Shown here: positions 53,049-53,300 of the stretch, one piece after another
How the letters are laid out: the number at the start of each line of letters is the position of its first letter
How positions within the stretch are numbered: position 1 is the first letter of the stretch
IMG/VR virus record: IMGVR_UViG_3300045988_176782
Location: 96,001 to 160,000 of that record
DNA length: 64,000 nt
Direction: 5' to 3' (one strand)
Origin: a virus
Notes under the pieces: generated by a model
Told to the model about the DNA's origin: nothing
The model's database searches: none
Seen by the model: the letters and a program-made list of their open reading frames with translations, nothing else
Translations under genes and position numbers: made by a program

Positions 53049-53179
53049 ATATTCAGAAAGTGAGAAACGGACAAGGCTTTGGCAAGTGAAGGAACTTTGA
53101 TGTAGGAGATGAAAGTCGTTTGAACTAATAAAAAGTTCCTAATAAATTGGTGGGATGCGAGTGGTTTCTTACTTCTTAT

Positions 53180-53300
53180 GTGGGGTTAGTGTAATGGCAG
53201 CACGTTGGTTATAAGTGAGTCTTGGCAAAGAGTCATCAGCAATTATTCTTTCTTGCAGGGAGCCCGAAGGACAGGGTTCAATTCCCTTGACCCTACACCA
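53180..53300 (+). tRNA. non-canonical tRNA-like RNA (121 nt, no recognisable anticodon arm)
   Basis: Acceptor GTGGGGT(T)/(G)ACCCTAC with G3:U70, A73 and encoded CCA; D arm GTGT-AATGGCA-GCAC; T arm CAGGG-TTCAATT-CCCTT; ~70 nt between D and T arms do not fold into a 5-bp/7-nt anticodon arm. Confidence 0.5.

What the first reader, a model, noticed from the sequence alone, without database searches (positions are those of the whole stretch)
53055..53300. Promoter-driven tRNA-like RNA with an alanine-type acceptor end but no anticodon arm
A consensus promoter (53020-53048) precedes a ~120-nt leader closed by an 11-bp helix (AAGTGAGAAAC at 53058 with GTTTCTTACTT at 53164). A 121-nt tRNA-like unit follows. 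Its acceptor GTGGGGT/ACCCTAC has a G3:U70 wobble, A73 and an encoded CCA, which is the classic AlaRS identity set also used by tmRNA. It could form an 8-bp acceptor helix through T8:G. The D and T arms are recognisable. The ~70 nt between them show no 5-bp stem with a 7-nt loop anywhere. Possible roles are a chargeable tRNA mimic, a heavily interrupted tRNA or a miniature tmRNA-like molecule.
Basis: partly seen in the sequence, partly recalled or inferred. Interest (0 to 1): 0.65.

Follow-up and report, generated by a model that had tools for sequence, protein, structure and literature searches.

The report
tRNA-shaped RNA carrying Ro-partner module
The "tRNA without an anticodon arm" is real: it is a phage tRNA look-alike whose anticodon stem is interrupted by a conserved ~45-base module, found in many gut phages and Lachnospiraceae, usually beside a Ro60-like RNA-binding protein gene, so it is probably that protein's partner RNA and not a decoding tRNA.

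Summary
A near-consensus promoter, a structured ~125-nt leader and a 121-nt tRNA-like unit (G3:U70, A73, encoded CCA, D and T arms) lie at the stated coordinates. Standard tRNA, tmRNA and Rfam searches miss the unit.

The missing anticodon arm has a cause. The 5' strand of the anticodon stem is interrupted by a conserved module: an A/U-rich linker, a covarying 7-bp hairpin (UCUU-GNNA-AAGA) and (A)CAGCAAU. A second copy sits in the tRNA-like gene at 55903-56018.

A pattern scan found this module in about 60 distinct phage tRNA-like genes and in 68 loci of species-representative genomes, nearly all labelled Lachnospiraceae or other Clostridia. In 58 of those 68 loci it shares a strand with a DUF2828+vWA gene; in 57 it lies 89-894 nt upstream of it, and RtcB sometimes follows. 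The window encodes this protein at 61345-62853. Its predicted fold matches Ro60/Rsr.

The best reading is a Y-RNA-like tRNA mimic that partners a Ro60-like protein in RNA repair or quality control. This is a new variant of the Ro60/YrlA/RtcB theme. A true intron that is spliced out remains a live rival. A tmRNA-like identity is rejected. Alanine charging is untested.

The parts
53020..53048 (+). Sigma-70-type promoter (-35 TTGACG, 17-nt spacer, -10 TATAAT)
   Evidence: 11 of 12 consensus matches. The -10/+1 block recurs elsewhere in the window and in related phage loci. It is conserved in all six relatives; L256 has a single substitution in the -35 hexamer.
53055..53179 (+). 5' leader closed by an 11-bp helix (53058-53068 with 53164-53174). 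It is presumed to be removed by RNase P at G53180.
   Evidence: The MFE fold shows the helix. In L256, C53168T and T53170C swap a G-C pair and a G.U pair but keep both positions paired. Substitutions in the inner hairpin also keep pairing. No homologue was found outside close relatives. RNase P cleavage is inferred.
53180..53300 (+). tRNA-shaped RNA: acceptor 53180-86/53290-96 (G3:U70), A73 at 53297, CCA at 53298-300, D arm 53189-203, T arm 53272-288 plus an extra G at 53289
   Evidence: Direct reading of the sequence. ARAGORN calls it only with introns allowed at an 80% threshold. The acceptor, D and T regions are nearly invariant in six relatives.
53205..53267 (+). Interrupted anticodon-like arm. 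The closing stem is TTGG (53205-08) with CCGA (53264-67). It encloses the module and a short loop (CAGGGAG, 53256-62).
   Evidence: U.G becomes C-G in L002/L254. Three-way-junction folds are the MFE or within 0.7 kcal/mol of it. The loop differs among relatives: CAGGGAG, CAGGGG, CAGGGA, TTGAGGA.
53209..53244 (+). Conserved module: A/U-rich linker (53209-14), hairpin P1 (53215-36, core TCTTGGCAAAGA at 53220-31), CAGCAAT (53237-43)
   Evidence: Covariance-model hit of 22.8 bits, E 3.6e-4, second best in the window. A53218:U53233 becomes G:C in L003/L255. Family-wide P1 covariation: no shuffle of 500 reached the observed score.
55903..56018 (+). Second tRNA-like gene with the same module (55934-55970) inserted after the 5' strand of the anticodon stem
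   Evidence: Rfam tRNA hit of 48 bits with a 50-nt 'loop'. Covariance-model hit of 30.7 bits, E 2e-6. Its anticodon-like loop differs in each of three relatives.
61345..62853 (+). Ro60-like protein gene (DUF2828 helical domain plus vWA domain with a MIDAS motif), the proposed protein partner
   Evidence: Pfam DUF2828 (1.4e-32) and DUF7788 (2.4e-34). PHROG 850, 'RNA-binding protein'. The nine best structural matches of the AF2 model are all Ro60/Rsr. Homologues lie next to module RNAs in 58 of 68 bacterial and 27 of 58 viral loci.
49515..50843 (+). ATP-dependent RNA ligase gene in the same RNA-repair/tRNA island; a possible functional counterpart of bacterial RtcB
   Evidence: Pfam RNA_ligase (3.2e-07) and PHROG 968 (2.8e-65). 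Ligase homologues occur in 4 of the 58 viral module loci (L066, L071 and L013 already). A role with this RNA is inferred.

Best explanation
The unit at 53180-53300 is a phage member of a family of tRNA-shaped non-coding RNAs. I found no description of this family in Rfam 15 or in the paper library.

In this family, a conserved ~40-50-nt module interrupts the 5' strand of the anticodon stem. The module has an A/U-rich linker, a 7-bp hairpin (three covarying pairs plus UCUU-GNNA-AAGA) and single-stranded (A)CAGCAAU at a nearly fixed distance. I propose that these RNAs are the Y-RNA-type partners of a Ro60-like protein, the DUF2828+vWA protein encoded here at 61345-62853.

Proposed course of events:
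1. Transcription starts from the promoter at 53020-53048 (consensus match shown; activity inferred).
2. RNase P removes the structured leader at G53180, and the encoded CCA becomes the 3' end (inferred from the tRNA-like acceptor and T arm, and from the precedent that a YrlA RNA is cut by RNase P).
3. The module, projecting from a 4-bp closing stem as a three-way junction, recruits or is held by the Ro60-like protein (inferred from genomic coupling).
4. The RNP acts in tRNA/RNA repair or quality control during infection, together with a ligase: the phage RNA ligase at 49515-50843 here, RtcB in the bacterial operons. This probably happens in the conflict over tRNA cleavage (inferred by analogy with rsr-yrlBA-rtcBA).

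The alanine-type acceptor end may let the RNA be recognised, or even charged, like tRNA-Ala. It is unlikely to decode, because its anticodon-like loop lacks U33 and changes length among near-identical relatives.
For: Membership of the module family:
- The pattern scan returned 103 viral stretches, most of them tRNA-like genes with the same module.
- An independent covariance model ranks the two window copies first and second.
- P1 is 97.8% paired, with 70 double-sided changes against 19 in shuffles; no shuffle of 500 reached this.
- The P1-to-CAGCAA spacing is identical in 105 of 112 sequences.

A split anticodon arm is real:
- 23 of 46 viral members restore a perfect 5-bp stem with U33 and R37 across the module, against 0.35% of shuffled controls.

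Link to the protein:
- In species-representative genomes the module lies on the same strand as a DUF2828+vWA gene in 58 of 68 loci, and 89-894 nt upstream of it in 57.
- The L196 operon reads RNA1, RNA2, DUF2828-vWA, RtcB (Pfam 3.5e-113).
- 27 of 58 viral loci also carry the gene, always on the same strand, and in about half of them (by my reading of the distances) it directly adjoins the RNA.
- The protein is Ro60-like. The nine best Foldseek hits are all Ro60/Rsr (probability 1.0, TM up to 0.53, about 550 aligned columns), and the MIDAS motif DxSGSM is conserved (D, both S and M invariant, G in at least 90%).

Arguments for a stable domain over an intron:
- Bacterial RNA2 carries the module but has no D arm and no anticodon arm.
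- Bacterial RNA1 has a long interrupted closing stem instead of a free NCCA end.
- In 23 orthologous bacterial RNA1s, C32 and U33 are invariant and A37/A38 nearly so, yet the 'anticodon' takes 8 different values while the compared flanking segments (D-stem end, module, stems, T arm) are about 92% identical.
- No module-less alleles were found for two gene bodies.

Precedents:
- YrlA tRNA-mimic Y RNAs are encoded within 4 kb of Ro60 on the same strand (PMC4201824).
- A Thermus phage Ro60 binds phage-encoded Y-like RNAs (PMC12135203).
Against: - There is no direct evidence of binding, of a stable transcript or of its ends.
- In this window the RNAs lie 5.4-8 kb upstream of the Ro-like gene, not next to it.
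- Among the 80 closest viral relatives of the window's protein, only about 8-10 loci have a module hit within 4 kb. These genes generally sit at the end of tRNA arrays, so part of the phage-side association may reflect tRNA-island synteny.
- Many phage members have fully canonical anticodon arms once the module is conceptually removed, and normal acceptor/CCA ends. That is what real intron-containing tRNAs would look like.
- The topology differs from YrlA, and the Ro-binding motif GNCGAAN0-1G is not a family feature.
- Which part of the RNA contacts the protein is unknown.
Confidence: 0.55

Rival explanations
1. The unit is a genuine intron-containing tRNA. On this reading, the module is a new kind of small bacterial/phage tRNA intron sitting in the 5' strand of the anticodon stem. 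An unidentified endonuclease, or self-cleavage, would excise it. RtcB in Lachnospiraceae, or the phage RNA ligase, would join the halves, possibly with the Ro60-like protein as a cofactor.
For: - Conceptual removal restores perfect anticodon arms with U33 and R37 and many standard anticodons in 23 of 46 phage members, against 0.35% by chance.
- Phage members have normal 7-bp acceptor stems, discriminators and often CCA.
- RtcB, the tRNA-splicing ligase family, is in the bacterial operon, and an RNA ligase lies near the window's copies.
- 'Enigmatic' tRNA introns have been reported in Lak megaphages (PMC6784885).
Against: - After removal, the window unit has a loop without U33 (CAGGGAG), and close relatives have 6-nt loops.
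- Bacterial RNA2 has the module but nothing to decode with, and bacterial RNA1 has an extended closing helix instead of a free NCCA end.
- The anticodon triplet is hypervariable among orthologues.
- The insertion point varies (28/29 to 31/32) and the junctions show no conserved nucleotides.
- No module-less alleles were found.
- No endonuclease candidate was identified.
- 45 nt is far below the size of any known self-splicing intron (own knowledge).
Confidence: 0.27
2. The unit is a decaying tRNA-Ala pseudogene that happens to carry the module and has no function of its own.
For: - The T arm is irregular: a C:U mismatch or a bulge, plus one extra nucleotide.
- The anticodon-like loop is non-canonical and shows indels among relatives.
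- Folding z-scores are only about -2.
- The D and T arms resemble those of the phage's own tRNA-Ala at 57137 (by eye).
Against: - It has its own near-consensus promoter, conserved in all six relatives apart from one -35 substitution in L256.
- The acceptor, D and T arms are essentially invariant, while substitutions in P1, the closing stem and the leader helix preserve pairing: A:U to G:C, and U.G to C-G.
- The module still scores as a family member.
Confidence: 0.08
3. The unit is a miniature tmRNA-like or alanine-charged translational rescue/recoding RNA. This was one of the first reader's suggestions.
For: G3:U70, A73 and an encoded CCA are the AlaRS identity set (own knowledge). They are invariant in six relatives.
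Against: - ARAGORN's tmRNA mode finds nothing, even at a lowered threshold.
- The Rfam tmRNA score is 10.8 bits against a threshold of 47, and covers only the T loop.
- I saw no candidate tag reading frame or pseudoknots, though I did not search for them specifically.
- G3:U70 is not shared by other members of the module family.
Confidence: 0.05

Closest known systems
YrlA-type bacterial Y RNAs with Ro60 (Rsr), including the Salmonella rsr-yrlBA-rtcBA RNA-repair operon (PMC4201824; PMC7790460)
   Same: - A non-coding RNA with a tRNA-like domain (D arm, T arm, acceptor-like stem).
- Encoded on the same strand as, and close to, a ring-shaped Ro60-type protein with a vWA/MIDAS domain.
- Often two RNAs in tandem.
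- An RtcB ligase in the same operon (L196).
- tRNA-processing enzymes are expected to act on it.
   Different: - The protein belongs to Pfam DUF2828/DUF7788, not the TROVE family, and resembles Ro60 only at the fold level.
- The RNA keeps the normal tRNA topology, with 5' and 3' ends at the acceptor stem, whereas YrlA is permuted.
- The defining element is a hairpin plus ACAGCAAU module inside the anticodon stem, and an anticodon-like loop is retained.
- The Ro-binding motif GNCGAAN0-1G is not a family feature.
- Rfam has no matching model.
Thermus phage phiLo Ro60 with its phage-encoded Y-RNA-like RNAs Yrl1 and Yrl2 (PMC12135203)
   Same: A phage encodes both a Ro60-type protein and candidate partner RNAs upstream of it on the same strand. 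The proposed role is manipulation of host RNA processing or defence.
   Different: The phiLo RNAs are stem-bulge-stem Y RNAs with a CGAA motif, not cloverleaf tRNA look-alikes carrying this module. I did not compare the phiLo protein directly; its paper describes it as a Ro60 homolog with the canonical HEAT-repeat ring and vWA domain.
Intron-containing tRNAs: archaeal/eukaryal bulge-helix-bulge introns joined by RtcB, bacterial group I introns in anticodon loops, and the 'enigmatic introns' of Lak megaphage tRNAs (PMC6784885)
   Same: An insert in the anticodon arm hides the tRNA from standard detectors. Removing it restores a canonical arm in many family members. An RtcB or RNA ligase gene lies nearby.
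   Different: - The insert is about 45 nt with its own conserved hairpin plus ACAGCAAU.
- It sits in the 5' strand of the stem (28/29 to 31/32), not at 37/38.
- The splice junctions are not conserved.
- It also occurs in RNAs with no anticodon arm at all.
- The held part of the Lak intron table contains no CAGCAA, and the one Lak intron shown in the retrieved passage spans 93 nt.
tmRNA
   Same: An alanine-type acceptor end (G3:U70, A73, CCA), a T arm, and no normal anticodon arm.
   Different: I saw no tag reading frame and no pseudoknots. It is far too short, fails both tmRNA detectors, and has a normal D arm.

Membership tests
Canonical tRNA (Rfam RF00005 / ARAGORN) | 7-bp acceptor stem, discriminator base and CCA end | tested here: met
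   GTGGGGT/ACCCTAC, A73 and CCA at 53180-86 and 53290-300.
Canonical tRNA (Rfam RF00005 / ARAGORN) | D arm and T arm with a GTTCRANYC-type loop | tested here: met
   D arm GTGT/GCAC with loop AATGGCA. T loop TTCAATT with G53:C61. However, 49:65 is mismatched or bulged, and one extra nucleotide precedes the acceptor 3' strand.
Canonical tRNA (Rfam RF00005 / ARAGORN) | Contiguous 5-bp anticodon stem with a 7-nt loop (U33, R37), and a score above the detector thresholds | tested here: not met
   No call by ARAGORN at default settings or by Rfam at gathering or permissive thresholds. Even after conceptual removal of the module, the loop is CAGGGAG with A33, and it is 6 nt long in relatives.
tmRNA | tRNA-like domain plus a tag-peptide reading frame and pseudoknots; detection by ARAGORN -m or Rfam RF00023 | tested here: not met
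   ARAGORN -m finds 0 genes at an 80% threshold. RF00023 scores 10.8 bits against a threshold of 47, over 15 nt only.
Module-bearing tRNA-like RNA family (defined here) | A/U-rich linker, 7-bp hairpin with UCUU-GNNA-AAGA, then (A)CAGCAAU at a fixed spacing, inside the anticodon stem of a tRNA-like fold | tested here: met
   Covariance model R1, built without the window lineage, scores 22.8 bits (E 3.6e-4) at 53209-53244. There is one G.G mismatch in P1, and the spacer is one nucleotide shorter.
Module-bearing tRNA-like RNA family (defined here) | Same-strand genomic linkage to a DUF2828+vWA (Ro60-like) gene | tested here: met
   The gene at 61345-62853 is on the same strand, 8.0 kb downstream of this unit and 5.3 kb downstream of the second copy. 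This is looser than the 89-894 nt seen in bacteria.
YrlA / Y RNA (partner of Ro60) | Encoded near a Ro60-type protein gene on the same strand | tested here: met
   See the linkage row above. The partner protein matches the Ro60/Rsr fold but does not match the TROVE Pfam family at E <= 0.01.
YrlA / Y RNA (partner of Ro60) | 5' and 3' ends pair in a long Ro-binding stem, with the tRNA-like domain permuted (closed acceptor-like stem-loop) | tested here: not met
   The window unit has an open acceptor stem with CCA, and no pairing between leader and trailer. Bacterial RNA1 does have a long interrupted terminal stem, but it extends from the acceptor stem.
YrlA / Y RNA (partner of Ro60) | GNCGAAN0-1G motif (PMC4201824) | tested here: inconclusive
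   The window has GCCCGAAG at 53262-69, one nucleotide too long. Relative L256 has GCCGAAG, an exact match. Other family members lack the motif at this position.
YrlA / Y RNA (partner of Ro60) | Physical binding to the Ro60-type protein | not testable with these tools
   This needs EMSA, RIP or co-purification.
tRNA with a spliced intron | The insert is absent from the mature RNA, and a splicing endonuclease or self-splicing activity exists | not testable with these tools
   No transcript data are available. No endonuclease was searched for systematically. A bulge-helix-bulge motif was not formally tested.
Ro60/TROVE protein family (for the ORF at 61345-62853) | Helical-repeat ring plus a C-terminal vWA domain with a MIDAS motif | tested here: met
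   The AF2 model has pLDDT 77 and pTM 0.77. The nine best PDB matches are Ro60/Rsr over about 550 columns. DxSGSM is conserved. Sequence-level TROVE membership is not met, and phmmer against PDB sequences finds nothing.

The most novel reading that the evidence does not exclude
Lachnospiraceae and their phages may run a Ro60-like/RtcB (or RNA-ligase) system built around tRNA-shaped RNAs whose anticodon triplet is freely exchangeable. Eight different triplets occur in otherwise ~92%-identical orthologues.

On one reading, these RNAs are programmable baits, decoys or sensors for anticodon-specific tRNA nucleases. On another, the module is the first protein-assisted, RtcB-ligated tRNA intron class in Bacteria.

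The window's member, with a full AlaRS identity set and a non-decoding loop, would be an alanine-chargeable version used by the phage.
Probability: 0.3. Interest if true: 0.9.

Novelty: new variant of a known kind. Interest (0 to 1): 0.74.

Why it matters
If this reading is right, four things follow.

- **A partner for an uncharacterised protein family.** The DUF2828+vWA family has more than 7,500 homologues in the searched database, and the five papers in the library that mention it are about plants or a tardigrade genome. This would give it a fold assignment (Ro60-like) and a candidate RNA partner.
- **A wider Ro60/Y-RNA/RtcB theme.** It would extend that RNA-repair theme to Lachnospiraceae, which supply nearly all the bacterial hits (many from gut or rumen samples), and to their large phages.
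- **An explanation for missed genes.** It would explain a class of tRNA-like genes that standard annotation pipelines miss or label as intron-containing tRNAs or pseudo-tRNAs.
- **A testable question.** The RNAs keep a canonical anticodon-loop frame but swap the triplet. That makes it possible to test whether tRNA mimics act as baits or sensors in the conflict between phages and hosts over tRNA cleavage, or whether Bacteria have an RtcB-dependent tRNA splicing pathway.

Tried and rejected
- **GenBank phages.** Megablast and blastn of the region found nothing beyond short chance or promoter-like matches.
- **Anticodon calls.** I first read the insert as an anticodon-loop intron with anticodon GGA or AUA, following ARAGORN, and read the second copy as tRNA-Phe(AAA). 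I rejected this. The covariance-model alignment shows that 'GUAAAAA' and 'UUAUAAG' are the module's A-rich linker, and the anticodon-like loop always follows the module.
- **Group I intron, bulge-helix-bulge intron, known small ribozymes.** Rfam has no hit, and the hammerhead, twister, pistol, hatchet, hairpin and HDV consensus motifs as I recall them are not present. This was a check by eye only.
- **P2 helix.** GCAA/TTGC is present here and in some Pro/Gln-type members but is not universal, so I do not count it as a defining feature.
- **ACAGCAA enrichment.** The motif is not enriched in the window as a whole: 16 matches against 11.7 expected.
- **Leader.** It has no homologue outside close relatives, apart from the promoter block.
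- **Closest relatives of the Ro-like protein.** A strict motif search in 80 such loci found none, and the covariance model hit only about 8-10 loci. The link is therefore specific to certain sub-clades on the phage side.
- **Module-less alleles.** Searches for two gene bodies without the module found none.
- **Literature.** Searches for phage tRNA introns, DUF2828, and Ro60/Y RNA in Firmicutes found no description of this module.
- **Lak megaphage introns.** Their supplementary intron table shows no CAGCAA in the held text.
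Full report
**1. The observation**

The sequence features are as described.
- The promoter is TTGACG-17-TATAAT at 53020-53048, matching 11 of 12 consensus positions.
- Its -10/+1 block recurs at several other places in the window and in many related phage loci, so it looks like this phage group's own promoter type.
- The leader is closed by an 11-bp helix, 53058-53068 with 53164-53174, with one G.U pair.
- From 53180 the sequence reads as a tRNA. The acceptor is GTGGGGT/ACCCTAC with G3:U70, followed by A73 and an encoded CCA.
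- The D arm is GTGT-AATGGCA-GCAC. The T arm has a canonical TTCAATT loop.
- The T stem and acceptor junction carries one extra nucleotide.

ARAGORN at default settings and Rfam at gathering thresholds ordinary tRNAs in the window but not this unit. A permissive Rfam scan gives only a 15-nt T-loop fragment of the tmRNA model. ARAGORN calls a tRNA only when introns are allowed and the threshold is lowered.

**2. What fills the gap**

A second long tRNA, at 55903-56018, scores 48 bits with the Rfam tRNA model and has a 50-nt 'anticodon loop'. It shares with the finding a hairpin TCTT-GNNA-AAGA followed by C(A/C)GC(A/G)AT.

I scanned IMG/VR for TCTTGNNAAAGA, then 25-55 nt, then GGTTCNANTCC. This returned 103 stretches, and most are tRNA-like genes with the same insert.

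The consensus insert has four parts:
- an A/U-rich linker;
- hairpin P1;
- two to three nucleotides;
- (A)CAGCAAU. The P1-to-CAGCAA spacing is identical in 105 of 112 distinct sequences.

P1's inner four pairs were fixed by the search pattern. The three outer pairs covary strongly: 97.8% of cells are paired, and there are 70 double-sided changes against 19 in shuffles, a value no shuffle of 500 reached. Slid controls collapse.

A covariance model built from 58 such modules, excluding the window's lineage, was run over the whole window with filters off. It ranks 55934-55970 first (30.7 bits, E 2e-6) and 53209-53244 second (22.8 bits, E 3.6e-4).

**3. Where the module sits**

The module interrupts the 5' strand of the anticodon stem, after nucleotide 28 or 29 in most members. 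The rest of the stem, a 7-nt loop and the 3' strand follow it.

Joining the parts conceptually restores a perfect 5-bp stem with U33 and R37 in 23 of 46 distinct phage members. Only 0.35% of controls with shuffled tails do so. Many different anticodons appear.

The sequences I first took for anticodon loops 5' of the insert ('GUAAAAA', 'UUAUAAG') align to the module's A-rich linker.

In the finding itself:
- The closing stem is TTGG (53205-08) with CCGA (53264-67).
- The module and a small second hairpin (GCAA 53239-42 with TTGC 53253-56) form a three-way junction. This fold is the MFE, or lies within 0.7 kcal/mol of it, in two of the three variants folded (window and L002; the L003 MFE is a different fold).
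- The anticodon-like loop is CAGGGAG, with no U33.

**4. Close relatives**

Five close relatives were found: L002/L001, L003/L021, L254, L255 and L256.
- They keep the promoter, leader, acceptor (G3:U70, A73, CCA), D arm and T arm almost unchanged.
- Substitutions in helices preserve pairing:
  - P1 A53218:U53233 becomes G:C.
  - The closing-stem U.G becomes C-G.
  - The leader helix swaps a G-C pair and a G.U pair.
- The anticodon-like loop differs in sequence and length: CAGGGAG, CAGGGG, CAGGGA and UUGAGGA.

This pattern argues for a selected structure whose loop is not constrained by decoding.

**5. The genomic partner**

I ran tblastn of all window ORFs against the fetched module loci. One protein stood out, the ORF at 61345-62853, with homologues in 28 loci, always on the same strand as the module RNA and directly adjoining it in about half of them.

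Its properties:
- It matches Pfam DUF2828 and DUF7788 and PHROG 850, 'RNA-binding protein'.
- A DxSGSM MIDAS motif is conserved; D, both S and M are invariant, and G is present in at least 90%.
- It has more than 7,500 homologues.
- Its AlphaFold2 model has pLDDT 77 and pTM 0.77. The nine best PDB matches are all Ro60/Rsr structures (2i91, 1yvp, 1yvr, 9nen, 2nvo and others), with probability 1.0, TM up to 0.53 and about 550 aligned columns.
- Sequence searches against PDB chains find nothing.

**6. Bacterial genomes**

One scan of species-representative genomes with a stricter pattern found 68 loci. Nearly all are Lachnospiraceae or other Clostridia, including isolate genomes with scaffolds of hundreds of kilobases.
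- In 58 of 68 loci a homologue of the Ro60-like protein is present, always on the same strand.
- In 57 of those, the module lies 89-894 nt upstream of the gene start.
- RtcB is detectable in 13 loci within the short flanks.

Locus L196 reads RNA1, RNA2, DUF2828-vWA, RtcB (Pfam RtcB 3.5e-113).
- RNA1 is a full cloverleaf with the module at 28/29. It has a long interrupted terminal helix instead of a free NCCA end.
- RNA2 has only a long acceptor-like stem, the module and a T arm.
- This mirrors the Salmonella rsr-yrlBA-rtcBA arrangement, and the rule that YrlA genes lie within 4 kb of Ro60 on the same strand (PMC4201824).

Rfam recognises none of these RNAs beyond weak tRNA hits.

**7. The variable triplet**

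Twenty-three bacterial RNA1s share the stem CG|CAC...GTGCG. Across them:
- C32 and U33 are invariant.
- A37 is present in 20 of 23, and A38 in 22 of 23.
- Positions 34-36 take eight values: UUU, GAU, GUC, UCU, UUG, GUA, GUU and UGG.
- The other compared segments (D-stem end, module, stems, T arm) are about 92% identical.

Ordinary orthologous tRNA genes do not behave like this. The pattern suggests that the triplet is read by something and is under diversifying selection. Several of these anticodons belong to tRNAs that known anticodon nucleases target (own knowledge). A bait, decoy or sensor role is therefore attractive, but it is inferred.

**8. Interpretation**

The finding is a phage member of a family of tRNA-shaped RNAs carrying a conserved module, and the family is genomically coupled to a Ro60-like protein. 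I read it as a Y-RNA-type partner.

The proposed path is:
1. Transcription from its own promoter.
2. Trimming by RNase P and 3' processing, as for YrlA (PMC4201824).
3. Binding by the Ro60-like protein through the module.
4. Action with a ligase in RNA repair or quality control during infection.

A phage Ro60 with its own Y-like RNAs has been described experimentally (PMC12135203).

Only the sequence, structure and linkage statistics are shown here. Expression, processing, binding, charging and function are all inferred.

**9. Caveats and rivals**

- In this window the RNAs are 5-8 kb from the protein gene.
- Among the 80 closest viral relatives of the protein, few loci have a module within 4 kb. 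Those genes sit at the end of tRNA arrays in general, so the phage-side linkage is specific to certain sub-clades.
- The intron model stays alive. Many phage members would be perfect tRNAs once the module is removed, and RtcB is a splicing ligase.
- Against the intron model:
  - RNA2 has nothing to decode with.
  - RNA1 has an extended terminal helix.
  - The triplet is variable.
  - The insertion point varies.
  - The junctions are not conserved.
  - No module-less alleles were found.
- The tmRNA idea fails both detectors.
- A pseudogene is unlikely, given the conserved promoter and the pairing-preserving substitutions.

**10. Novelty**

I found no description of the module, or of an RNA partner for DUF2828 proteins, in Rfam 15 or in the paper library. 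The 'enigmatic introns' of Lak megaphage tRNAs appear to be a different thing.

I rate the finding as a new variant of a known kind: the Ro60/Y-RNA tRNA-mimic RNP linked to RNA repair.

Noticed in passing
window 48109-48684 and 47840-47876: There is a full-length ROOL RNA (295.8 bits) and an abiF RNA motif (49.9 bits). Both lie just upstream of the RNA ligase gene and the tRNA island.
   Followed up: no
window 46742-46831: A 90-nt tRNA has anticodon CTA; ARAGORN labels it 'Pyl'. It looks like an amber suppressor, which hints at TAG recoding in this phage. Similar CTA tRNAs occur in many related loci.
   Followed up: no
window 56786-56895, 56992-57068, 57385-57545, 57677-57748, 55150-55228: The tRNA array holds further degenerate or odd tRNA-like pieces.
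- 56992-57065: an Rfam-only tRNA (39.5 bits), which ARAGORN calls Leu(aag) only at a relaxed threshold.
- 57678-57745: a tRNA-like element with a short anticodon loop.
- 56850 and 57520: T-arm-plus-stem elements preceded by ACAGCAA (56804, 57421).
- 57385-57429: a weak module hit (18 bits, E 0.008).

   Followed up: partly
window 53882-54442 and 54411-55139: An IceA-like protein (Pfam ICEA, 1.3e-29) overlaps an N6/N4 DNA methylase gene. This looks like an iceA/methylase-type restriction-modification pair carried by the phage.
   Followed up: no
window 49028-49498 and 50840-51460: A YqeY-like protein and a formate/nitrite-transporter-like protein flank the RNA ligase gene. The transporter-like gene is an odd thing to find in a phage.
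   Followed up: no
L116 3677-3763, L117 3543-3626, L138 3726-3812, L158 3876-3957, and many other loci in L106-L185: In many related phages the gene directly upstream of the Ro60-like gene is an unusually long (82-87 nt) tRNA-Cys(GCA) with a long variable arm. It may be another kind of partner RNA.
   Followed up: no
L167 3316-3702; L183 439-1159; L184 3361-3474; L182 5911-6033: Some modules have different P1 sequences but the same AACAGCAA. In L167, three tRNA-like genes in a row lie right upstream of the Ro60-like gene; in L183 there are four in a row. The family is therefore broader than the TCTTG..AAAGA subtype used for the scans.
   Followed up: partly
L131, around positions 255-360: A promoter-proximal RNA starts with a hairpin plus ACAGCAA and ends in a T arm, an acceptor 3' strand and ACCA. 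No matching 5' acceptor strand is visible. It could be a half-tRNA-like or RNA2-like form in a phage.
   Followed up: no
L190 (Promethearchaeota MAG contig SDNL01000117.1), L227 (Muribaculum MAG), L230 (Gastranaerophilales MAG): Single module-bearing tRNA-like genes turn up on contigs binned to non-Clostridia genomes, including an Asgard archaeon MAG. These may be mis-binned phage contigs.
   Followed up: no
L118, L163, L170, L160, L132 and others among L106-L185: These AT-rich phages carry several ordinary-looking tRNAs with A at position 34 (AAA, ATG, AGT, ACT, AGA). This is unusual for bacterial systems.
   Followed up: no
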